Assembly (NCBI GenBank): GCA_964507955.1
Contig: CAZDRR010000001.1
Location: forward strand, 66,650-130,649
From: an uncultured Candidatus Saccharibacteria bacterium
GTDB taxonomy: Bacteria; Patescibacteriota; Minisyncoccia; Phycocordibacterales; JAACPR01
Direction of reading: 5' to 3'
Length of the DNA: 64,000 nucleotides
The notes beneath the pieces are model-generated. The model saw nothing but the letters and a program-made list of their open reading frames with translations, ran no database searches and was not told where the DNA came from. Shown here piece by piece: positions 2,278-59,545 of this stretch (positions are counted from its first letter, which is position 1; every line of letters starts with the position of its first letter). The translations under genes were made by a program, and so were the position numbers.

Positions 2278-4814
2278 TTATTTATCCAGATACAGGTAAT
2301 ACTACAGTATTAGTGAATCCTAATACTGGTTTGAATATTATTGTAGAGAGAGACAATGCAAATTCTTTTAATATCACTGGATTTGTCGGATCATCGCATA
2401 ATGATCTTTTGGGCAAACAAGGAGGAGTAACAGGACAATTTTATCATTTGTCTCAAGAACAATATCTGAGATTAACAACTGGAGAGTTTGTTTCGATAGA
2501 TGAAACTGGACAATTTTATCCAACAACAAATCCTAGTGGATTTATTACTGGAGTAGATTTGTCTTCTTATGCGACAATTAATTTTGTTACAGGAATTAGC
2601 GGAGATTTACAAGGACAGGTTTCCATATTAAATGAGCAAACAGGGGATTATGTTCTAAAATTAGAAACAGGTAATTTTATTACTCAAACAGTTGCAGATA
2701 ATTTATATGTTAATGTAACGGGAAGCGAAACAATTTCTGGAACGAAGTCTTTTGTTAATGATGTCAATGTTCCGAATTTGTTTGCCACAGGAGGAATTTC
2801 TGGAGACTCTTATCAATTAGACACAGGATCATCCCTTACTGCAAATATTGGGCAATTTGTTTGGAACAATACTGATGGCACAGCAGACTTAAAACTTAAA
2901 GGAGGGAATGTTACCCTTCAATTAGGGCAAGAGCAATTAGCTCGCGTTGTTAATGGATCTACTGGAGATTTGTTGGAATCGAATTTTCAAGTGGTTAAAG
3001 TTATCGGAGCGCAGGGGCAGAGATTACAAGTAGATTTAGCAAGAGCGGACAGCGATTTGCATTCAGAATCTACTTTAGGAATTGTTACAGAAAATATAAC
3101 GAAGAACCAAGAAGGTTTTATTACCACATTTGGCGAAGTTCATGATATTAATACTCTTTCTGTAAATGGAGAAACTTGGCATGATGGGGATGTTCTATAT
3201 CTATCGCCAACAGTTTCGGGAAGAATAACTAATGTAGAACCCCAAGCCCCAAATCATAGAGTTGTGGTAGGATTTGTGGAATATGCACATGCCGTTCATG
3301 GAAAAATTTATGTAAAAATAGATAATGGAATTTCTTTAAATGAATTGCATGATGTTCGCGTTTCTAATGTCCAAAATGGACAAATTATTAAATTTAATTC
3401 TGGTAGTGGAATTTGGTTGAATGATACATTATCAACAGGAGATGTTTCTGGTATTTCGAGTTATGCCACAATTGCTTATGCAACAGGTATTTCTGGTTAT
3501 TTAGGTTCTCAAATAGTAGATTTGCAATCTAAAACAGGATCTTATGTTACGGGTTCTGTTATTCGTCCTAGCGATACGGGACAATTTTATGCTTCTAGTA
3601 ATCCTTCTGGATATATTACTGGTATTTCGAATATTGTTTTTACAACAGGAAATCAAACAATTACAGGTGTTAAAAATTTTACAGCCCCACCAACTATTTC
3701 TGGTAATCAAATAGCGACAGTTATTGACCCAGTTAGAACATCTGTTACAGGAGACGGGGTTATTACAAGTTTCAATATTAGCGGAGCTTCGGGATTAGTT
3801 AATCCATCGGCTTTGATCGTTGCTATAGATGGAACTTTGCAAGAACCAGTAGTAGATTATACAGTTAATACAGGCGCTATTACCTTTACTTCTCCCGTTC
3901 CAAGTGGTTCGAAAGCCGTTATCGTATCTCCAATTAACATACTACAGGTTTCGCAAATGATTCCTGCTGATGGAAGCGTTACTACAGCTAAATTGGATAA
4001 TAGTTTAACTGTTCAAAATTTAACAGTTACATCGAGCCTATCATCAACTGGCAATATAGCGGGTAGTGGCACTAATAATACATTACCAAATCAAACGGCG
4101 ACAACCAATTCCTCGATTTTGAATCTTGGATTAGCAGATGCTCGTTATTTTAATAAACTTAGAAATGTAACATATTCATTTTCTACAGGATGGACTTCTG
4201 TTCAAACAACTGGAGGTTCTTCAACAACACTACCATCGCATTTACGAGTAAATGCTGCAACCTCTACAAATGCGGGAGCTTGCACCACATGGACACCAAA
4301 CGGTCGAATGGCGATCGGTGTAAATCCACAACCACCAGTTTTTAATAACTCGGTAATAGATTTTACGAATCCAATAGGTATCAATATAGCGTTTAATACA
4401 GGTAATTTTAATATCCCCGCCAATTTAAATTTTGCATTTTTATTTGGACAAACTGAGACTTTTACGGCTGGATTATCTGCTATGGTAAAAACTGGTAGCA
4501 ATAGTAATATTGGTTGGGTTGGTATTCAGTGTGTAGCTGGTAATGTAACTATAATTGCTGTTAATGGAACAAGTGCTGTGCAACAAAGTTCTGTTATTGA
4601 TACATGTGTTAATGGTAGAAATCAAAAAGCTTATCGTTTAGTTGTAAGCGGTGGTCGAGTTGATGCATATAACAGTAGCGGAACTTTATTAGGATCATTA
4701 TTATCAGGCGCACCAACTACCAATAAAGATTATTGGGAAGCTATTCTTGTAGAAGCTAATTCGGCAGTAAATCAAATAGGAATCAACGTTCAACATCTCT
4801 CTTTAGATTGGTAA
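2268..4814 (+). CDS. tail fibre protein (long)
   Basis: An 848 aa ORF rich in S/T/G/N with recurring short motifs (e.g. FITGVDLSSYATINFVTGISGDL) that are typical of phage fibre shafts. The start overlaps the stop of the upstream gene. Confidence 0.55.
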   Translation: MSVIIYPDTGNTTVLVNPNTGLNIIVERDNANSFNITGFVGSSHNDLLGKQGGVTGQFYHLSQEQYLRLTTGEFVSIDETGQFYPTTNPSGFITGVDLSSYATINFVTGISGDLQGQVSILNEQTGDYVLKLETGNFITQTVADNLYVNVTGSETISGTKSFVNDVNVPNLFATGGISGDSYQLDTGSSLTANIGQFVWNNTDGTADLKLKGGNVTLQLGQEQLARVVNGSTGDLLESNFQVVKVIGAQGQRLQVDLARADSDLHSESTLGIVTENITKNQEGFITTFGEVHDINTLSVNGETWHDGDVLYLSPTVSGRITNVEPQAPNHRVVVGFVEYAHAVHGKIYVKIDNGISLNELHDVRVSNVQNGQIIKFNSGSGIWLNDTLSTGDVSGISSYATIAYATGISGYLGSQIVDLQSKTGSYVTGSVIRPSDTGQFYASSNPSGYITGISNIVFTTGNQTITGVKNFTAPPTISGNQIATVIDPVRTSVTGDGVITSFNISGASGLVNPSALIVAIDGTLQEPVVDYTVNTGAITFTSPVPSGSKAVIVSPINILQVSQMIPADGSVTTAKLDNSLTVQNLTVTSSLSSTGNIAGSGTNNTLPNQTATTNSSILNLGLADARYFNKLRNVTYSFSTGWTSVQTTGGSSTTLPSHLRVNAATSTNAGACTTWTPNGRMAIGVNPQPPVFNNSVIDFTNPIGINIAFNTGNFNIPANLNFAFLFGQTETFTAGLSAMVKTGSNSNIGWVGIQCVAGNVTIIAVNGTSAVQQSSVIDTCVNGRNQKAYRLVVSGGRVDAYNSSGTLLGSLLSGAPTTNKDYWEAILVEANSAVNQIGINVQHLSLDW

Positions 4815-4817
4815 AAT

Positions 4818-6227
4818 ATGGCAACAACGAAAATTTCATCAAATGTATTAGCGAGTGGAGCAGCATTAACAAATCTTAATGCTGGGTCATCCATTGCGTT
4901 TACAAAAAGCACATCTGTATCAGGCTCTTTAACGGTTGATACAACGACATTATTTGTCGATAATGTAAATCATAGAGTTGGTATTGGAACAACAGCACCA
5001 ACAGCAACTCTGCATGTTGTTGGAACTGGACTAGTTACTGGTGCATTACAAGTTGGAACCAATGCTGGTGCTAATACGTTTACTCTTAGAGATGCAATCT
5101 TTAGCAAGACAATAGGACAGCCCATGACTTTAAATACTGGGTTGCAAACAGATGGAACAACAGGTGTTGCTGCTGGTTGGACAGTTAGGGATACTACAAA
5201 CGGTATGTGGTCGCCCGCTCTTAGTTCTTTGGCATTCTCTACAGCTTCGGTTGAAAGATTGCGAATAAATTCTGTTGGTAACGTTGGTATTGGAACAATA
5301 ACACCAAATGAAAAGCTTACAGTTGTTGGAAATGTTAGTGCGACAGGGACAGTTACAGGAACGAATCTAGTCTATACCACAACCGATCAAACAGTTGCGG
5401 GCATTAAAACATTTTCAAACAACATTGTTGGGAATGGCACAAATAATACATTACCGAACCAAACAGCGACAACTGACGATGCTATTTTAACTCGTAGTTT
5501 AGAATTAAGCAACTCAATCAACTATGCATGGAGTAATATTGCAATTATTGGCGGTGGTGAATTTCCATCAACCGCATTAATGTCGCAAAATACTTATTAC
5601 ATTGCTGGATCATTAAACTTTTCAGCGGGAGCATTGTCTGGTTATGGTCAATATCTCGCTGTAGTTGATTCTCAAATATATTATCCATTAGGATCTGGCG
5701 CAGCCAATAGATTTGATCAACCATTTACTATTTGTTTTGAATATGATTCAAACTTAGGGACAGGTGTAGGGGTTCCTGTAGATAATTGGTTTATACATGG
5801 ACTAGATTATAATGTATTGAATATTCCTACATTATCAGGATCAAAATGTTTAGCTGTTAAAATTTCTCATACAAATAATACCATCGAGGCTATGATTTGT
5901 GCTGCGGGAGCATCATCAGCCACTTCTGGCGCAATTACATTACCGACAAATTTCATCACAAATCAATCTAAAAGGAAGATATGTATTTCGTGGACAGGAA
6001 CAACAATGAATGTTTATATTTGCTATGCTAATGCATCATCTTTTAACCCAACAACATTTTCTTTAATAGCGTCAGTGACGGCGGCGGGTGCATTGCCCAC
6101 AGCTATGACCCATTATAGGACATATTTTCTTTCATATTTAAATGCAGATTGGCCATATGGATATATTGGCGTAAGCCAAATTGCCGATATAAAATTTATT
6201 AGAAAAGCCGTTTCTCCAATTCTTTAA
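4818..6227 (+). CDS. tail fibre protein (distal part or second fibre)
   Basis: A 469 aa ORF of similar composition to the preceding gene. It shares a near-identical 39-nt segment (encoding GNGTNNTLPNQTATT) with the upstream fibre gene. Confidence 0.5.
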   Translation: MATTKISSNVLASGAALTNLNAGSSIAFTKSTSVSGSLTVDTTTLFVDNVNHRVGIGTTAPTATLHVVGTGLVTGALQVGTNAGANTFTLRDAIFSKTIGQPMTLNTGLQTDGTTGVAAGWTVRDTTNGMWSPALSSLAFSTASVERLRINSVGNVGIGTITPNEKLTVVGNVSATGTVTGTNLVYTTTDQTVAGIKTFSNNIVGNGTNNTLPNQTATTDDAILTRSLELSNSINYAWSNIAIIGGGEFPSTALMSQNTYYIAGSLNFSAGALSGYGQYLAVVDSQIYYPLGSGAANRFDQPFTICFEYDSNLGTGVGVPVDNWFIHGLDYNVLNIPTLSGSKCLAVKISHTNNTIEAMICAAGASSATSGAITLPTNFITNQSKRKICISWTGTTMNVYICYANASSFNPTTFSLIASVTAAGALPTAMTHYRTYFLSYLNADWPYGYIGVSQIADIKFIRKAVSPIL

Positions 6228-16829: not shown

Positions 16830-16914
16830 CGAGGAAAATTGGTAACTAAGGTGGGATTTGAACCCACAGAGGATAAATGATTTTAAGTCATTCGGTTGTC
16901 GCCATTTCCCTTAT
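16830..16914 (-). tRNA. type II tRNA, probably Leu (anticodon TAA)
   Basis: Acceptor GACTAAG/CTTAGTT; anticodon stem AATGA/TCATT with loop CTTAAAA; T-arm GTGGG-TTCAAAT-CCCAC; total length 85 nt. Confidence 0.45.
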
Positions 16915-16929
16915 CCACTTAGTCATTTT

Positions 16930-17278: not shown

Positions 17279-17363
17279 TGGTGGGAAAGGTGGGATTCGA
17301 ACCCACAGAGGGTAAAAGATTCTAAATCTTTCGCTTGTCGCCAATTTCACTTATCCACTTTCC
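17279..17363 (-). tRNA. type II tRNA (possibly Leu-TAG)
   Basis: Acceptor GGGAAAG/CTTTCCC; T-arm GTGGG-TTCGAAT-CCCAC; anticodon stem AAAGA/TCTTT; length 85 nt. Confidence 0.45.
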
Positions 17364-18025: not shown

Positions 18026-18147
18026 TATTACACAAAAAAACTAACGGAAATCATTAGGTTTTTTAAAAAAATGGAGGCTATATAGAGAATCCAACTCTAA
18101 TTTCATCATTACGAAAGATGTATAATCGCATTATATCATATAGCCAT

Positions 18148-18392: not shown

Positions 18393-18640
18393 ATGAAAAA
18401 TTTAAAAGAGTGGAGTCCGTAACTTTTTCTTGGCAGAATGAGGTTTAGACAGTGACTCCGCATGGGCTACTTTGGTCGTTTCGGTTCCACCCGAATTAAG
18501 ATTTCTCAACTTGTTACTGGACACCAACGCGCCTTTCCATGACTGGCTTACAAACTTCGCCGCTTTCGCTCTCTTTTAAAATTGGTGGAGAATATGCAAA
18601 ACACTTTATTAAAATTTTGTTTTGCAGTGTAAAGATTATT

Positions 18641-19138
18641 ATGAACCTTAAAGAACAAATTCGACAATATAAATTAGAAAATCCCGATAAAGGTTATGCC
18701 TCTATTGCAAAACATTTTAATTTAAAATCTCATAATTCTGTTAGATATCATTTAGACGATGCTGTTAAAATTAATATATTAAAATCGTCTAAACAATCTA
18801 GGCAGCGTAATGTATTAAAATTAAAAATCAAACAAAGTATTAAAGAGTCTAAAAAACAGGGAGTTATATCCGATTCATTTAATGATTTATTTAAATATTT
18901 TTCTACCCAAGAACCTATTTGTAATTTATCTGGTGTAAAATTTAATATCAATGATTCTTCTGCTTATGAATTAGATCATAAAATTCCTTATTCTCGCGGA
19001 GGAACCAATCAAAAAGAAAATTTGCAATTTACTATTAAATCTGTTAATCGCGCAAAACATTCTTTATTAGAAGAAGAATTTGTGTCTTTATGTAACGCAG
19101 TATCTAAATTTATGGGAAATGGACACAACGAGAATTGA
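18641..19138 (+). CDS. HNH homing endonuclease (start taken at the internal Met; the ORF extends to 18539)
   Basis: HNH motif YELDHKIPYSRGGTNQKENLQFTIKSVNRAKH. This is a + strand gene embedded in the - strand tRNA array. Confidence 0.55.
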   Translation: MNLKEQIRQYKLENPDKGYASIAKHFNLKSHNSVRYHLDDAVKINILKSSKQSRQRNVLKLKIKQSIKESKKQGVISDSFNDLFKYFSTQEPICNLSGVKFNINDSSAYELDHKIPYSRGGTNQKENLQFTIKSVNRAKHSLLEEEFVSLCNAVSKFMGNGHNEN

Positions 19139-19698: not shown

Positions 19699-19701
19699 AT
19701 T

Positions 19702-19773
19702 TGGTCGGATACTTGAGAATCGAACTCAACTGATCTTGCTCCCAAAGCAAGCGCATCGCCAGTCTGCCTGTAT
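19702..19773 (-). tRNA. tRNA-Pro (anticodon TGG)
   Basis: Acceptor CGGATAC/GTATCCG; anticodon stem CTTGC/GCAAG with loop TTTGGGA. Confidence 0.45.
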
Positions 19774-19779
19774 CCGTTA

Positions 19780-19858
19780 AATTGGTGCGAGTAGTGAGAT
19801 TCGAACTCACGATCATTCTTCGTTGGCAACGAAGTGCAATGGACCACTATGCGACACT
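19780..19858 (-). tRNA. tRNA-Gly (anticodon GCC)
   Basis: Acceptor GCGAGTG/TACTCGC; anticodon stem CTTCG/CGAAG with loop TTGCCAA; T-arm GTGAG-TTCGAAT-CTCAC; CCA encoded. Confidence 0.55.
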
Positions 19859-20243
19859 CGCAAAAAACTCTCCGAATTACGCATTGTAAAGAGGCGCGGA
19901 GAGTATGAAAATTGTTTCTATGCCTTGAGATTACAGGCTAGGGCGATCAACCATTCACAAGATTATTAGAAGACATTCCAAGCCCCCACTTCCTTGCTTA
20001 TCCACTACCTCTCGATAGTTGTCAATCAATGACGCTGTTTTATATACCGTTAGCTATTACGGTTTACCGCTTGCCATACTCAACCTTCGTTAATTCTTCG
20101 GGGTATGCCTACCGCGAATAAATTCCCTTAGATTAAACGCCTTGTGCCTTGCGGGCCAAGGTTCGCACAGAATTATCTTTCGATTTCTGTATTAGTCACC
20201 TTTCTGGCTTTCGGGGTCGCAACTTTTGCTTTTTATATATTAT

Positions 20244-20343
20244 GACATTCCCTTGAATGGAACCGCTTTATCCAGTTAAGCTACCCGCTCCGACAAAGCA
20301 TAAGCTGTCTGCTCTGTTGGCGAGCGGGACAGGAATCGAACCT
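20244..20343 (-). ncRNA. rearranged tRNA-like locus: 3' half (T-arm, acceptor, CCA) lies upstream of a matching 5' half (acceptor, D-arm, anticodon arm with loop ATTCAAG, anticodon TCA)
   Basis: On the - strand the order is GCAGG-TTCGATT-CCTGT, then CCCGCTC-G-CCA, then a 24-nt spacer, then GAGCGGG-TA-GCTT-AACTGGATA-AAGC-G-GTTCC-ATTCAAG-GGAAT. The two acceptor strands are perfectly complementary, but the halves are in permuted order. Confidence 0.35.
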
Positions 20344-22993
20344 GCATCTGATATATGGAAACCTACATTCATGTGTGCGACCTCGCTGCTTCCAAAATCT
20401 CTCGAAATTAGAAATACAACACACGAATTAACCTCTCTCTCGCGAGTTCAGTATCATCCCCAAGACTTCCCTTGATATAATCACAGGTTGCCTCGAAAAT
20501 ATGCCGTTCGCCTTTGCATCTCTGCTCTGACTTATGGCTACCCTTTGGGATTCATGCTTTCGAACCAAATTAAGTTTCCCTTTCAGGACCGATTACACCG
20601 TTGGCCTCACCGTTTTACTCTCAATGACCCGTAGGCTTCAACAACATAAGTTTTGATTTGCTCATATTGCCGATTCCCTTGGCTTGCTTGGTGGACTGCT
20701 TTTATACAGTGGGCGGCGTAGGACACCTTATCCCTTTCCCCGAATCACTTCGGGATTATCCAGTAATGCCCCCAAGCGGGCAGAATTTTTAAAATGTTAA
20801 AGAACTTTTTGTATCGCACCTTCGAAGCTTTGCATCGTCGGCTGATGTTTAGGACTATATCTGGTTTTCAGATTTTGTCAACAGGTTTTTTGAAAATTTT
20901 ACGGTTGTCTTGGCTAAGACAACCAAATAAGGTTGTTTAAAGATGGAGAAGATTGGATTCAAACCAATTCGGCATTTACTTTCCAGCCTGCCGTATTGCT
21001 GGAGTCAGTTACAGACGTATGCACGATTATAGCCCACGGGAGCAATCAACAGATCTAACCCATAAAACTAGACCAGTCTTCCGAGCCGCGCTGGTTTCGG
21101 GTATGTCTCACCACACTGCTTCTCCTAAAATTTGGTCCTCCCGACTCGCATCGAACGAGTAATTTGCAATTATCAGTCGCAGGTTATGGCCGTTTTAACT
21201 ACAGGAGGTAAGCGCCAAACTGGTTCGCATATTAAGAGGCGTTTTGGCGACTGTCAAGAAAAAGTTGGTTGGACCAGAGAATTGCGACATCTCAGCCTTC
21301 CGCTTATCGGGCGGATGCTCTTCCTTTGAGCTATGGTCCAATGAAAATTGTGCTACCAGAGTGGGAATCGAACCCACACAACTCCCGAGTTTTATCCTGA
21401 GTCGAACAGGATTCCCTTGGTATTGGCCAAGGGGTAGCACCAGCTACTTCTCGCAGCATTAAAATGGAGGCCCATTGGTGACATGCACACCACTATCTAG
21501 GTTACAAATCTAGCGCATCGCTATCTATGCTTATAGGCCATGAAATTTGGCTGTGAGACAGGGACTTTCACCACTCCGATCATTCTTGCAAGAGAAACTG
21601 TTGATCGCGCTATAATTCGCTTCCCACAATTGAAAATGGAGGAAGGCTGAGAACTTGAATCCCATGAGAGTATTAGTCCCACAATCTCGTTAGCACCGAG
21701 TTCTAGTCGCCTGACCAGTTAACCTTCCATAAAATGGTCGCTTGTCTCCGAATCGAACGGAATTATTTCGGGCTTCAACCGAACGCACTGTCACCAGACC
21801 TGCCCACAAGCGTAAAAATTGGCTCCTCACCTTCGAATCGAACGAAGCTCGTTGGCTATTACTAGCTTACAGCTTAACAGGCTGCCCGCACTCCTTGTGC
21901 GTTGTGAGGATTTATATATGAAAATTTTTGGTGCTGTCTCTCTCGCCGTCTCTCTCGCGGGTCAAAGGCTTACGACCTTTCCCACGTATCGTTTTAAGTT
22001 AACGCTAGTTATTTAAAAATGATAAGTCGTCCTCCCCCTTATCTTGCATTAAGTTTTTCCCCACAATTTTACGTTTTCTTATGTTTTACCGTTATGGTTC
22101 TTACGGGCAATGCTTCATTCAACTCTAATATGCTTCCATATTTTCAACCCGTAGAGGATTTAAGTTCTATGTTTCAAATTGGTGCAAGACACGGGAGTTG
22201 AACCCGCACGATATTCGGGTAAGAGCCGAATGCCCGTAGCCGAATGCCCGTCCACTGTGGCTTATCTTGCATAAAAATGGTCAGGGTGGAGGGTAATGCT
22301 CCCACTTCTACTGGTTAAAAGCCAGTGGCTTCACTATTAAAGCTTCACCCCGTTACAAAACAACAAGTGGATTGTAAAAGCCCACATTACTCCCTCCTAC
22401 GGAAGCGTCCTAACACTTAAACGATTGTTGTTAAAAGATTAATTAGCAGTAGAAAGCATTACTACGCCATTTCAGTTTATTGGATTTTATTTGTCAGGGA
22501 ATTTGTGACCTGATTTTATAATCAATATTCTTGATGGATGGATCACAATCTCCATTCTCCAACGTATCTTTCCTGTAGCAATTCGCGGACTGCTAAAATG
22601 GTGCGTGCCGTGGGATTCGCACCCACTCAGACTTATTTGTATGCCGCAAGGTTACAGCTTGCTTTGCTCTCTCAGGCTAGGACACGCATAAAACAAACAG
22701 GGGTGTCCTGCCACTAGACGACGATCAACATCATTGAATCGACAGGAATCGAACCTGTGTCTCCCCTTAGACTTATAAATTGGTCGCTCCCCTTAGATCG
22801 GACTCATGAAATCCAACGCCTGCGCAGCGAGGAGCGTTTGAAAAGATTAGTCAAACTGTGGAACGACCACAAACCTTCGTTAGAGGCGAGAACTAACGGA
22901 TTCGAACCGACAGCAGCCTGCCTTTTTCTCTGTTTGACTAAAAGTGGAGGCGGCACGGTGATGTAACCGTGAATCATCCGCCATTGAAAAATT

Positions 22994-23222: not shown

Positions 23223-23660
23223 TTATGAGGATGACGAGATGGCCGCTTCTCTATTCTGCTTTTTTAAATATTTAATTGCGGACTCAAGGCTAAAAATATT
23301 ATCAAAAAAATGCCCTAATCCTAAATTGCAATGGTTACAAATCCATCCTCTAAATTTATTAGAAGAATGACAGTGGTCTAATTGGAGATTAGAATGTTTT
23401 CCGCAGATTTCGCAATTTAAGGGTTTTTCAGTTATTTGGTTTTTATTTTGTAAAAAAGAATAACCGTGTAAAAAAGTCTTCTCAGGATTTTTCTTTTTCC
23501 ATTTTTCAGAATATTGAATTTGTTTTTTGCTATTTTTGGGATACCAAACTTCTTTGACATATTTATTATGGCATTCCTTGCAATAAGATCGGGGTTTTCC
23601 TCTATTAAGCGAAAAATTATCTATAGATTTTAATTGGCCACATTTTGAACATTCTTTCAT
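23223..23660 (-). CDS. HNH endonuclease of the endonuclease-VII-like type with N-terminal zinc ribbon
   Basis: N-terminal zinc-ribbon pattern CSKCGQLKSIDNF...CKEC. EndoVII-like motif LDHCHSSNKFRGWICNHCNLGLG. Confidence 0.6.
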   Translation of the reverse strand: MKECSKCGQLKSIDNFSLNRGKPRSYCKECHNKYVKEVWYPKNSKKQIQYSEKWKKKNPEKTFLHGYSFLQNKNQITEKPLNCEICGKHSNLQLDHCHSSNKFRGWICNHCNLGLGHFFDNIFSLESAIKYLKKQNREAAISSSS

Positions 23661-23878: not shown

Positions 23879-23955
23879 TTGGCACTCCCAGCGGGAATCA
23901 AACCCTGCGTTTCATGATTGAAAGTCATGTGTCCTGCTCGACTAGACGATGGGAG
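23879..23955 (-). tRNA. tRNA-Glu (anticodon TTC)
   Basis: Acceptor GCTCCCA/TGGGAGT; anticodon stem CATGA/TCATG with loop CTTTCAA; T-arm CAGGG-TTTGATT-CCCGC (4 of 5 positions pair). Confidence 0.5.
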
Positions 23956-24332
23956 CATTGAAATTTAGGCATCTCGCCAGCGGTCATTACGAGTGATTAG
24001 CTCGTCTGGAGCCGCCAGTGACACCACGGTTTTTGTTTTTAGCGAAATCACTCGCGAATACAAGAACCTTGAAAATTTATCGGATGAACCCTAAAACCGA
24101 ACATTACTGCTCAAGGCTTATTGGTCCTACTAGGGTCCGAAAACTCCTAGAAGTTTCTACAAACGCTCTTGTTTCCCCCAACTTGTTCTCTCAAGATTGG
24201 CTTCACAGTCATCACTGTCCCCTTTCGGTCTTAGCGGGTTCTGGCCCTCGCTGCCGTCGATGTTTCAAACTCTACAGATTTTTCCGAATTCGTCAACAGA
24301 TTTTTTCGGAAATTTCTCTTTTCTACAGAAAA

Positions 24333-25790: not shown

Positions 25791-25988
25791 TTATTTTTTG
25801 ATAGAAGCGGCCCAAATTAATCCCATATTGGCGGCAGAGTAACTTAACCATACCAGACCCCAAGGGATATTACATTTCGCCAAATAGCCAATACCGACAG
25901 ACGCATAAAGCACTGCCGATATGGCTACAGCGATATTCTCAAATGTAAGGGTCATTACTGAGATTATAGATTCAAAAAACCCTTCCAT
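25791..25988 (-). CDS. small membrane protein
   Basis: A 65 aa hydrophobic ORF. Confidence 0.3.
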   Translation of the reverse strand: MEGFFESIISVMTLTFENIAVAISAVLYASVGIGYLAKCNIPWGLVWLSYSAANMGLIWAASIKK

Positions 25989-26533
25989 TCTTCGCGAATT
26001 TTTGGGGCATTGATCATTAATGCTGGGATTTCTGGCGCAGTAGGAATGTTGCCATTTACATCATACCATGGCGTATGATTTGACTTTTTGGTATTACAAG
26101 ACCTACAAGCTAAAACCCTGTTATGATGACTGTCACATCCGCCTTTGCTTTTTGGCTTTACGTGATCAATAGTTAGATCAGAAAGAGGATGTTTGGTCAA
26201 ACAATATTGACAAGTATAATCATAAATTTTAGCCAAATCAAAAAGAGAAAGTTTCTTCTTCTTTGGTCTGCGAAAGAATTTTGAAGTGACTACAATGATT
26301 GTAGGCACGGGCCATTCTTGTTTCGTGCTGTTTAAAGCGGGTTGATCATCGTAAAATTCCGCCAAAGAATTCCACGAATCCAAAGAATGGAAGATGTTTC
26401 CATTTTTATCTAAAGCAGTGACATTTTTCTTCAATAGATGAACAAACGCTGCCTTTGCAGTAATAGTGGTAATAGGTTGCCACGCATTGTTCAAAAGCAG
26501 AGTTGTTTTAGTGTTAGCCGAGACGCTTTTCAT
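25964..26533 (-). CDS. HNH endonuclease
   Basis: TIDHVKPKSKGGCDSHHNRVLACRSCNTKKSNH. Confidence 0.6.
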   Translation of the reverse strand: MKSVSANTKTTLLLNNAWQPITTITAKAAFVHLLKKNVTALDKNGNIFHSLDSWNSLAEFYDDQPALNSTKQEWPVPTIIVVTSKFFRRPKKKKLSLFDLAKIYDYTCQYCLTKHPLSDLTIDHVKPKSKGGCDSHHNRVLACRSCNTKKSNHTPWYDVNGNIPTAPEIPALMINAPKIREEWKGFLNL

Positions 26534-59465: not shown

Positions 59466-59545
59466 GGGGGTGTATCTCAACGGTCTTCTAAGCCGTGATA
59501 GAGTAATGGAATCAAATGCAGGTTCGAATCCTGTCTCCCCCACCA
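59466..59545 (+). tRNA. atypical tRNA-like gene (anticodon arm ACGGT-CTTCTAA-GCCGT, anticodon TCT; reduced D region and long extra arm)
   Basis: Acceptor GGGGGTG/CTCCCCC, then A, then CCA. T-arm GCAGG-TTCGAAT-CCTGT. Only 7 nt separate the acceptor from the anticodon stem, and 21 nt separate the anticodon stem from the T-stem. Confidence 0.35.

What the first reader, a model, noticed from the sequence alone, without database searches (positions are those of the whole stretch)
20244..20343. Permuted / split tRNA-like gene with a UGA-reading anticodon (TCA)
On the - strand, a complete tRNA 3' half comes first. It comprises variable region, T-arm GCAGG-TTCGATT-CCTGT, acceptor strand CCCGCTC, discriminator G and CCA. 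A 24-nt spacer separates it from a complete 5' half. The 5' half has a perfectly complementary acceptor strand (GAGCGGG), a canonical D-arm (GCTT-AACTGGATA-AAGC) and an anticodon stem-loop (GTTCC-ATTCAAG-GGAAT). The loop has U33 and A37 and reads anticodon TCA. This is the reverse of the normal half order, and I could find no ordinary partner half for either piece nearby. I see three possible explanations:
- a circularly permuted tRNA gene that matures via a circular intermediate;
- two pseudogene remnants of a tandem duplication;
- exons of an intron-split tRNA.
A functional tRNA with anticodon TCA would decode UGA, acting as an opal suppressor or a Trp-UGA reader. That would be notable for a phage, because the long ORFs here all end with standard stops.
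Basis: partly seen in the sequence, partly recalled or inferred. Interest (0 to 1): 0.8.

Follow-up and report, generated by a model that had tools for sequence, protein, structure and literature searches.

The report
Permuted tRNA-shaped domain inside GOLLD RNA
The "back-to-front tRNA" is real, but it is not a free-standing suppressor tRNA gene; it is a tRNA-shaped module built into the variable linker of a giant phage non-coding RNA (GOLLD), and the same module recurs in other GOLLD RNAs.

Summary
The sequence is as described, apart from a 27-nt rather than 24-nt spacer. ARAGORN calls the re-joined halves a canonical 77-nt tRNA with anticodon UCA.

The element is not a stand-alone gene. It lies in a 1.27-kb ORF-free gap in a minus-strand tRNA array. 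Immediately 5' of it lies a full-length match to the conserved GOLLD 3' domain (RF02032, 120 bits, E=1e-32, below the gathering score of 150).

Five GOLLDs that score above the gathering threshold carry the same permuted module in the same linker. The order is T-arm, closed acceptor stem, D-arm, anticodon-like hairpin.

Evidence that selection maintains a tRNA L-shape, so this is not pseudogene debris:
- six different acceptor sequences all stay paired;
- 68 of 68 cells pair and 10 of 17 pairs change on both sides;
- the tertiary pairs 15:48 and 19:56 covary.

N-CCA follows the acceptor in all lineages but one. The spacer (16-40 nt) and the "anticodon" loop are not conserved. TGA is an ordinary stop codon here.

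Best reading: this is a tethered tRNA mimic, akin to YrlA and two-piece tmRNA. RNase P and 3' trimming probably open it to a CCA end. It is not an opal suppressor. I found no published description of this permuted form.

The parts
20854..20881 (-). Near-consensus sigma-70-type promoter (TTGACA, 16 nt, TATAGT; 11 of 12 matches). Putative start of the GOLLD transcript.
   Evidence: A consensus match only; function is inferred.
20346..20848 (-). ORF-free stretch of about 500 nt between the promoter and the module. Presumed GOLLD 5' domain, which the literature says is poorly conserved.
   Evidence: Position only. No similarity to L064-type 5' domains (nhmmer). Fold z-score of -1.4 is not significant. 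Kretsch 2025 (PMC12286853) describes the 5' region as less conserved.
20351..20356 (-). ATATAT. Candidate 3' strand of a variable-arm-like closing helix, which would pair with 20235-20240.
   Evidence: Read from the sequence by analogy with ACTTA/TRAGT and the outer stems ATAAGAG/CTCTTAT (L064) and AACAATAG/CTATTGTT (L090). Not tested. An alternative pairing of GGTTTCC (20362-20356) with GGGAAT appears in the minimum-free-energy fold.
20329..20350 (-). Variable-region nucleotides CAGAT (U48 at 20346) followed by the T-arm GCAGG-TTCGATT-CCTGT.
20318..20328 (-). Acceptor 3' strand CCCGCTC, discriminator G and CCA.
   Evidence: NCCA is present in 5 of 6 acceptor versions of the module.
20291..20317 (-). 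27-nt spacer that caps the acceptor stem, with its own hairpin CAGAGCA/TGCTTTG. Predicted to be removed by RNase P (cut between 20291 and 20290) and by 3' trimming.
   Evidence: Hairpin. Non-conservation (16-40 nt, with or without a hairpin). Removal is inferred from the M. smegmatis YrlA precedent (PMC4201824).
20265..20290 (-). Acceptor 5' strand GAGCGGG, U8-A9, and the D-arm GCTT-AACTGGATA-AAGC.
20247..20264 (-). G26 and the anticodon-like hairpin GTTCC-ATTCAAG-GGAAT (UCA at 20256-20254).
   Evidence: The stem covaries in other lineages, but neither the loop sequence nor its length is conserved.
19918..20246 (-). Exit strand (GTCATAATATATAAAAA) followed by the conserved GOLLD 3' domain. Signature motifs: AAAGCAAAAGU, GAAAGGUGACUAAU, CCCGCAAGG, GUAGUGGAUAAG, GUAAUCUCA.
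   Evidence: Rfam RF02032 at 19922-20316, 120.3 bits, E=1e-32, model positions 1-416. An nhmmer profile of GOLLD 3' domains gives 154 bits, but that profile includes this sequence.
19867..19903 (-). Hairpin CTCTCCG...CGGAGAG followed by a T-run. Likely terminator of the GOLLD transcript. It also scores as the Rfam abiF motif.
   Evidence: 39.5 bits against a gathering score of 37. The terminator reading is inferred from the sequence.

Best explanation
The element is a circularly permuted, tRNA-shaped domain of a GOLLD RNA. GOLLD is the roughly 0.8-1 kb phage non-coding RNA that assembles into a multimeric nanocage.

Topology. The normal tRNA ends are joined by a disposable spacer. The chain enters and leaves through the variable-arm position. 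The whole L-shape, with acceptor end, elbow and anticodon-like hairpin, therefore hangs from the GOLLD linker J13/15. In the solved cage this linker faces the lumen.

Proposed mechanism:
1. The roughly 980-nt RNA is transcribed from the promoter at 20881-20854 and ends at the terminator at 19903-19867 (inferred).
2. The module folds like a tRNA (shown by covariation).
3. RNase P cuts 5' of G1, between 20291 and 20290. 3' exonucleases then trim the spacer back to the encoded CCA. The result is a nicked, two-piece GOLLD held together by the acceptor helix and exposing a mature-type tRNA end (inferred by analogy with M. smegmatis YrlA and two-piece tmRNA).
4. The displayed mimic engages a factor that recognises the tRNA elbow or acceptor end. 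The partner is unknown. It does not decode UGA.
For: GOLLD context:
- RF02032 covers the full model directly downstream (E=1e-32).
- The setting is a tRNA array in a 1.27-kb ORF-free gap. The literature places GOLLD near tRNA islands and reports tRNAs in its linker (PMC12286853, PMC12990946, PMC6582537).

Recurrence:
- The permuted module sits in the same linker in GOLLDs that score above the Rfam threshold: L064 152.8, L090 156.3, L234 156.2, L293 155.3, L292 173 bits.
- It is also present in L039, L087, L177, L181-183, L253 and L307.

Selection for the fold:
- On the four spacer-trimmed sequences of alignment A2, 68 of 68 cells pair and 10 of 17 pairs change on both sides. None of 500 shuffles reaches this, and slid controls pair in 34-54% of cells.
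- Across all lineages there are six acceptor versions.
- The 15:48 pair switches between A:U and G:C. The 19:56 pair switches from G:C to C:G in L090 and L253.

End features:
- The acceptor stem is exactly 7 bp and is followed by N-CCA in 5 of 6 acceptor versions. That count includes loci found by scans that did not require CCA.
- The base at position -1 is U in all versions except the window's.
- The spacer is hypervariable: 17 nt versus 40 nt in GOLLDs that share the same acceptor.

Precedent: M. smegmatis YrlA, which has a 7-bp acceptor stem, is cut by RNase P in vitro and in vivo and acquires CCA (PMC4201824).
Against: - The window's GOLLD match is below Rfam's gathering score (120 against 150).
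- The window's 5' domain could not be recognised.
- No close relative of this particular GOLLD was found. Phages related through the phosphoesterase gene lack GOLLD.
- Processing is untested. L292 has the same module closed by a hexaloop with no CCA, so an open CCA end is not universal.
- All tRNAs in these arrays encode CCA, so the CCA could be partly inherited from the donor tRNA.
- The linker faces the cage interior, which may hinder access by RNase P (PMC12286853).
- The window's module has a fully canonical 7-nt anticodon loop, unlike most other lineages.
Confidence: 0.8

Rival explanations
1. Uncleaved tRNA mimic. The module stays covalently closed, with the spacer as a permanent cap. 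It acts only as a structural or protein-binding tRNA-like knob, as in most YrlA RNAs. The CCA would be a relic, or would be read in its looped form.
For: L292 carries the module with a hexaloop cap and no CCA. S. Typhimurium YrlA and D. radiodurans Yrn1 are not cleaved (PMC4201824). The window's spacer extends the helix with a stable hairpin. The linker lies inside the cage (PMC12286853).
Against: N-CCA directly after an exact 7-bp stem survives five complete turnovers of the acceptor sequence, while the adjoining spacer is free to vary. U at -1 is seen in all versions but one. Stand-alone YrlA-like modules in related phages lack CCA and have longer, continuous acceptor helices, so CCA is not simply carried along with the module.
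Confidence: 0.3
2. A genuine permuted tRNA gene. The two halves are excised from the precursor and joined, by way of a circular or ligated intermediate. The product is a free 77-nt tRNA with anticodon UCA that reads UGA as an opal suppressor or as Trp or Sec.
For: The re-joined halves form a canonical cloverleaf with a 7-nt loop, U33, A37 and an encoded CCA.
Against: The break points lie in the variable region and join RNA of several hundred nt on each side. No bulge-helix-bulge motif is present, and bacteria and phages are not known to have a splicing endonuclease. Sister modules have 9-nt loops or other triplets. TGA terminates 16 of 44 long ORFs. The 7/5 acceptor/T-arm geometry is not that of tRNA-Sec.
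Confidence: 0.04
3. Decay product. The element is two leftover halves of a tandem tRNA duplication, or an insertion scar in the GOLLD linker, with no function of its own.
For: GOLLD linkers are clearly a dumping ground for tRNA-derived inserts of several topologies. Some are degraded: L139 has a mismatched acceptor, and L237 and L011 lack acceptor strands. Tandem duplication followed by loss of the outer halves is the likely origin of the permutation.
Against: All stems and two tertiary pairs are maintained through compensatory change across lineages. No mismatch occurs in any of the 21 stem pairs of the window's copy.
Confidence: 0.05

Closest known systems
GOLLD RNA with a tRNA in its J13/15 linker (Weinberg 2009, cited from memory only because the paper was not held; Morgado 2020, known only through citations in the papers read; Kretsch 2025, PMC12286853; review PMC12990946)
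   Same: The host RNA is the same, the insertion site is the same (the variable, lumen-facing linker just 5' of the conserved 3' domain), and the genomic setting in phage tRNA arrays is the same.
   Different: The examples in the papers I could read are predicted as ordinary tRNA or pseudo-tRNA genes and are joined to GOLLD through their acceptor ends. I confirmed that arrangement in L139, L229 and L007. Here the order is circularly permuted: the acceptor end is closed by a spacer and the tether is at the variable arm. I found no mention of this in the searchable literature.
YrlA, bacterial and phage Y RNA-like RNAs (Rfam RF02553; Chen 2014, PMC4201824)
   Same: The order is identical: T-arm, capped acceptor stem, D-arm, all closed by a helix at the anticodon or variable side. 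The M. smegmatis member has a 7-bp acceptor stem, is cut by RNase P and carries CCA.
   Different: The score is far below the gathering threshold (37.6 against 69). No Ro60-binding stem is present, and none of the 10 window ORFs scanned against Pfam has a TROVE domain. The module has its own anticodon-like hairpin, has the CCA encoded, and is a domain of a roughly 1-kb cage-forming RNA rather than a roughly 110-nt sRNA.
Two-piece (circularly permuted) tmRNA (Rfam RF04321; an example in a viral contig is L137)
   Same: The gene order is T-arm, acceptor 3' strand with CCA, an intervening segment to be removed, then the acceptor 5' strand followed by the large functional body. The mature RNA is held together by the acceptor helix.
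   Different: There is no G3:U70 alanine identity pair, no tag reading frame and no tmRNA pseudoknots. ARAGORN finds no tmRNA, and the only Rfam signal is an 18-bit local match to beta_tmRNA.
Circularly permuted tRNA genes of Cyanidioschyzon merolae, some green algae and Thermofilum
   Same: The 3' half lies upstream of the 5' half, and the acceptor strands are joined by a short intervening sequence.
   Different: Those are stand-alone genes with junctions in loops that form bulge-helix-bulge motifs. They are processed by the splicing endonuclease and a ligase into free, decoding tRNAs. None of those features is present here.

Membership tests
GOLLD RNA (RF02032) | Conserved 3' domain (P14-P27) that matches the covariance model. 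| tested here: inconclusive
   The alignment covers the full model (positions 1-416) at 120.3 bits and E=1e-32, but this is below the curated gathering score of 150. All signature motifs are present (alignment).
GOLLD RNA (RF02032) | Large ORF-free RNA of about 0.7-1 kb in a phage or prophage, usually within or beside a tRNA array. | tested here: met
   The 1.27-kb gap at 19862-21132 has no ORF above 72 aa and lies between tRNA-Ile and tRNA-Gly in an array of about 28 tRNAs. The window has phage tail-fibre and HNH endonuclease genes.
GOLLD RNA (RF02032) | Structured 5' domain (P1-P12) and assembly into a 10- to 14-mer cage. | not testable with these tools
   Rfam has no model for the 5' domain. 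There is no sequence similarity to L064-type 5' domains, and the fold z-score is -1.4.
YrlA / Y RNA-like (RF02553) | tRNA-like module in the order T-arm, closed acceptor, D-arm. | tested here: met
YrlA / Y RNA-like (RF02553) | Ro60 (Rsr)-binding stem, a neighbouring TROVE-domain gene, and a score above the gathering threshold. | tested here: not met
   The score is 37.6 bits against a gathering score of 69, and the outer helix does not align. None of the 10 ORFs scanned against Pfam has a TROVE domain. Not all ORFs of the window were scanned.
Permuted (two-piece) tmRNA (RF04321) | Permuted acceptor/T-arm piece followed by an intervening segment. | tested here: met
   and the local beta_tmRNA alignment.
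Permuted (two-piece) tmRNA (RF04321) | G3:U70 pair, tag-peptide reading frame, pseudoknots, and a model score above threshold. | tested here: not met
   The third acceptor pair is G3:C70. There is no tmRNA hit from Rfam at the gathering threshold or from ARAGORN.
Circularly permuted tRNA gene (algal or archaeal type) | The 3' half precedes the 5' half, and the joined halves give a canonical cloverleaf. | tested here: met
Circularly permuted tRNA gene (algal or archaeal type) | Stand-alone transcription unit whose termini form a bulge-helix-bulge motif for the splicing endonuclease, releasing a free tRNA. | tested here: not met
   The termini run directly into the flanking RNA: the presumed GOLLD 5' region upstream and the GOLLD 3' domain downstream. 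No bulge-helix-bulge motif is visible in the sequence. Whether a circular RNA intermediate exists is not testable here.
Opal suppressor tRNA or tRNA-Sec | UCA anticodon in a 7-nt loop with U33. | tested here: met
Opal suppressor tRNA or tRNA-Sec | Released as a free tRNA, conserved anticodon, genome signs of UGA read-through, and 8/5 geometry with a long variable arm for Sec. | tested here: not met
   The loop is not conserved among sister modules. TGA is the stop codon of 16 of 44 ORFs of at least 150 aa. The geometry is 7/5. Release as a free tRNA is not testable here.

The most novel reading that the evidence does not exclude
GOLLD nanocages of this type carry, on every protomer and facing the lumen, a tRNA-shaped arm that RNase P and exonucleases mature to a genuine 5'-phosphate and CCA-3'OH acceptor end. 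The cage RNA would then be a two-piece molecule like permuted tmRNA. The exposed ends could be substrates for tRNA-end enzymes such as the CCA-adding enzyme or aminoacyl-tRNA synthetases. They could instead be decoys for host defence toxins that attack tRNA acceptor ends. Either role would link the unknown function of GOLLD directly to the tRNA economy of the infected cell.
Probability: 0.3. Interest if true: 0.85.

Novelty: new variant of a known kind. Interest (0 to 1): 0.62.

Why it matters
GOLLD has been known since 2009 and is now known to form a 10- to 14-mer RNA cage, yet it has no assigned function.

This work gives a concrete handle on that question:
- Several GOLLD lineages keep a complete, correctly folded tRNA mimic under purifying selection.
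- The mimic is tethered through its variable arm, so its acceptor end, elbow and anticodon end stay free.
- It usually has an RNase-P-ready 7-bp stem and an encoded CCA.

The resulting predictions can be tested directly: which ends exist in vivo, whether RNase P cuts, whether the end is charged, and what binds it.

There is also a practical point for annotation. tRNA finders miss these modules entirely because of the permutation, so counts of "tRNAs inside GOLLD" are underestimates.

Tried and rejected
- Group I intron or permuted intron-exon idea (my first guess, with structured flanks on both sides). No intron family appeared in the Rfam E-value scan of 19700-21300.
- Intron-split tRNA or tmRNA. 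ARAGORN with introns up to 1500 nt, and in tmRNA mode, found nothing, and the acceptor 7-mers have no second copy nearby.
- Close relatives of the window's own locus:
  - blastn of the locus against 50,697 phage records gave no match.
  - The pattern scans found no sister of the window's own lineage.
  - Seven contigs related through the phosphoesterase gene (40-64% amino-acid identity) have tRNA arrays, tmRNA genes and stand-alone YrlA-like modules, but no GOLLD.
- The scan returned only chance matches. The metagenome and genome scans were dominated by a Streptococcus tRNA followed by a terminator.
- The 5' domain was not recognised by an nhmmer profile built from L064-type and L090 5' domains. 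Its folding energy is not significant.
- Whether the module copies the acceptor stem of a co-resident phage tRNA: it does not, with a best match of 5 of 7 bases. No window tRNA is a close paralogue, the best being 55 of 77 identical.
- Cultured phages carrying an L064-type GOLLD: none found.
- I first thought CCA was absent from all normal-order GOLLD-embedded tRNAs. L229 shows T-CCA, so I dropped that claim.
- The Weinberg 2009 and Morgado 2020 papers are not held in the library, so I cannot exclude that their supplements mention the permuted form.

Full report
**1. The observation**

On the minus strand, 20350-20247 reads as follows:
- CAGAT, then the T-arm GCAGG-TTCGATT-CCTGT
- CCCGCTC, G, CCA
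- a 27-nt spacer
- GAGCGGG, TA
- the D-arm GCTT-AACTGGATA-AAGC, then G
- the hairpin GTTCC-ATTCAAG-GGAAT

Two corrections apply. The spacer is 27 nt (20317-20291), not 24. It also forms its own hairpin that extends the acceptor helix.

ARAGORN and the Rfam tRNA model do not call the element as it stands. When the 5' half is placed in front of the 3' half, ARAGORN returns a canonical 77-nt cloverleaf with anticodon tca.

No ordinary partner half exists. Each acceptor 7-mer is unique on this strand between 17 and 24 kb. ARAGORN finds nothing when introns of up to 1500 nt are allowed or in tmRNA mode.

**2. Context**

The element sits in a 1.27-kb gap (19862-21132) without credible ORFs. The gap lies inside a minus-strand array of 21 ARAGORN tRNAs, plus further tRNA hits seen only by Rfam.

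An E-value scan of the gap against Rfam gave three relevant matches:
- GOLLD (RF02032) at 19922-20316, covering model positions 1-416, 120.3 bits, E=1e-32. This is below the gathering score of 150.
- A weak Y-RNA-like (YrlA) match over the element itself (37.6 bits).
- A local match to two-piece beta-proteobacterial tmRNA (18 bits).

YrlA and two-piece tmRNA are both RNAs in which a T-arm and a 3' acceptor strand precede the 5' acceptor strand.

A near-consensus promoter lies at 20881-20854. A hairpin with a T-run lies at 19903-19867; it also scores as the abiF motif. Together they would bracket a transcript of about 980 nt.

The literature places GOLLD in phages near tRNA islands. It describes a conserved 3' domain, a variable 5' domain, and an unresolved linker that faces the interior of a 14-mer cage and sometimes contains tRNAs (PMC12286853; PMC12990946; PMC6582537).

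**3. Comparative evidence**

Pattern scans of viral, metagenome and genome collections were followed by scripted checks of acceptor complementarity. They showed the same permuted module at the same place: after the P13 hairpin and before the AAGYAAAA...AAAGNNNNYTWA core.

GOLLDs above the Rfam threshold that carry it are L064 (152.8 bits), L090 (156.3), L234 (156.2), L293 (155.3) and L292 (173). Their close relatives L039, L087, L177, L181-183, L253 and L307 carry it too.

The acceptor stem occurs in six unrelated versions:
- CCCGCTC (window)
- CACCGCC
- CGGACGC
- CCGGTGT
- CCGGCGT
- CTTGGCG

Each is matched by its complementary 5' strand.

On an alignment of four spacer-trimmed sequences, the stems plus the 15:48 pair gave these results:
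- 68 of 68 cells form standard pairs.
- 10 of 17 pairs change on both sides.
- None of 500 shuffles reaches this.
- Slid controls pair in 34-54% of cells.

Two tertiary contacts that define the L-shape also covary:
- The 15:48 pair is A:U in the window and in the L064 type, and G:C in L090, L234 and L292.
- The elbow pair 19:56 is G:C everywhere except L090 and L253. There the D-loop reads AGTGCTA and the T-loop TTGGAAT, which gives C:G.

This rules out decayed remnants. It shows that a tRNA-like three-dimensional fold is under selection.

**4. What is and is not conserved**

Conserved features:
- the T-arm, the D-arm and the elbow;
- an exactly 7-bp acceptor stem;
- entry and exit through the variable-arm position. 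The exit strand GTYAT...AAAAA is similar in the window, L064 and L090, which hints at common descent.

Mostly conserved features:
- A discriminator base followed by CCA, in five of six acceptor versions. This count includes loci recovered by scans that did not require CCA.
- U at position -1 in every version except the window's.

Not conserved:
- The spacer, which is 16-40 nt, with or without a hairpin. It is 17 nt versus 40 nt in GOLLDs that share the same acceptor.
- The anticodon-like loop. It is ATTCAAG in the window, ATGATAA in L292, and a 9-nt loop in the others (YGTTGAAAA, GATAGGAAA, CATAGGAAA).

L292 closes the acceptor with a hexaloop and has no CCA.

GOLLD linkers also hold normal-order tRNA-like inserts (L139, L229, L007, L255, L237, L011). 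Several of these have mismatched or missing acceptor strands. Other GOLLDs have no insert at all (the L001-type family).

**5. Mechanism**

Shown:
- The element is tRNA-shaped.
- It abuts a GOLLD 3' domain. Covalent embedding in one continuous GOLLD transcript is inferred, not shown.
- It is selectively maintained.

Inferred:
- A 7-bp acceptor stacked on the T-arm, followed by NCCA, is the substrate that bacterial RNase P recognises.
- M. smegmatis YrlA has this same permuted layout and a 7-bp stem. It is cleaved by RNase P in vitro and in vivo and carries CCA. YrlA RNAs without the 7-bp stem are not cleaved (PMC4201824).
- I therefore expect a cut between 20291 and 20290, followed by exonucleolytic trimming of the 27-nt spacer to CCA (20318). 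The product would be a nicked, two-piece GOLLD like two-piece tmRNA.
- The permutation would let the RNA expose a mature tRNA end without falling apart. A normal-order insert processed in the same way would sever GOLLD.

The partner of the mimic is unknown. Because the acceptor and elbow are conserved and the anticodon loop is not, recognition is most likely at the acceptor or elbow end.

The closed-mimic alternative remains open. L292 and the lumen-facing position of the linker both favour it.

**6. The suppressor idea**

- TGA ends 16 of 44 ORFs of at least 150 aa; TAA ends 27 and TAG ends 1.
- The UCA triplet is not shared by any sister module.
- The module could become a free tRNA only through two cuts in the variable region and a ligation. 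No bacterial or phage pathway for this is known.

I give this reading about 4%.

**7. Limits**

- The window's GOLLD is divergent: it scores below the Rfam gathering threshold and its 5' domain could not be recognised.
- No close relative of it was found. Phages related through a neighbouring phosphoesterase gene lack GOLLD. They carry tmRNA genes and stand-alone YrlA-like modules without CCA instead.
- The original GOLLD papers were not readable here. Searches of the held literature for GOLLD together with "permuted", "tRNA-like" or "RNase P" found no description of this architecture.

**8. Verdict**

- The element is a new variant of two known things: tRNA inserts in the GOLLD linker, and permuted tRNA mimics of the YrlA and two-piece-tmRNA kind.
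- Its value is as a testable clue to what GOLLD cages do.

Noticed in passing
window 19867-19903 (-): An Rfam abiF-motif hit just above threshold (39.5 bits against 37). It is a hairpin CTCTCCG...CGGAGAG followed by TTTTTT, immediately after the GOLLD 3' end. It reads more naturally as the GOLLD terminator than as an abiF leader.
   Followed up: partly
window 59466-59542 (+): An odd tRNA-like sequence (Rfam tRNA 36 bits, not called by ARAGORN) with an oversized D-region. By eye, its T-arm ATGCAGGTTCGAATCCTGTC matches the module's T-arm at 19 of 20 positions. It is also the most similar tRNA in the window to the re-joined module (55 of 77 identical).
   Followed up: no
window 16848-16920, 17282-17350, 18075-18145, 21269-21340, 22281-22352, 23883-23956 (-): Six further tRNA hits seen only by Rfam, some with aberrant T-loops or no encoded CCA. 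The true size and integrity of the array are unclear.
   Followed up: no
window 18539-19138 (+), 23223-23660 (-), 25964-26533 (-): HNH / endonuclease VII-type homing endonuclease ORFs are interspersed in the tRNA/GOLLD array. The same association has been reported for mycobacterial GOLLD-containing tRNA clusters (PMC6582537).
   Followed up: partly
whole window; L208 4555-4629, L209 and L210 5243-5317: TAG is almost unused as a stop codon in the window (1 of 44 ORFs of at least 150 aa). Phages related through the phosphoesterase gene carry tRNAs with the amber-suppressor anticodon CTA, and also tmRNA genes. I did not test for TAG recoding.
   Followed up: no
L039, L087, L177 versus L064, L181-183 (module region): GOLLDs that are otherwise nearly identical carry two unrelated acceptor stems (CACCGCC versus CGGACGC) and spacers of 16-40 nt. 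The acceptor/spacer cassette turns over far faster than the rest of the RNA. This suggests cassette exchange or diversifying selection on acceptor identity.
   Followed up: partly
L064 7558-8229 and 12269-12780; L292 972-1561 and 1950-2417: The same viral contigs carry both a ROOL and a GOLLD RNA a few kb or less apart in one tRNA array. L064 also carries a drum RNA.
   Followed up: no
L058 ~1518-1603, L022 ~487-617, L090 2764-2830, L208 ~3984-4100, L209 ~4957-5074: Small stand-alone permuted tRNA-like modules (T-arm, capped acceptor, D-arm) lie in phage tRNA arrays. L058, L022 and L090 give weak YrlA hits; L208 and L209 were not scored against YrlA. L208, L209 and L090 lack CCA, whereas L058 and L022 have N-CCA after the acceptor. 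No Ro60 gene was looked for.
   Followed up: partly
L137 12168-12417: A circularly permuted (two-piece) tmRNA encoded on a viral contig (RF04321, 83.5 bits).
   Followed up: no
window 20890-21130 (-): A 240-nt ORF-free stretch between tRNA-Ile and the GOLLD promoter. By eye it contains possible hairpins (not tested) and has no Rfam match. Unexplained.
   Followed up: no
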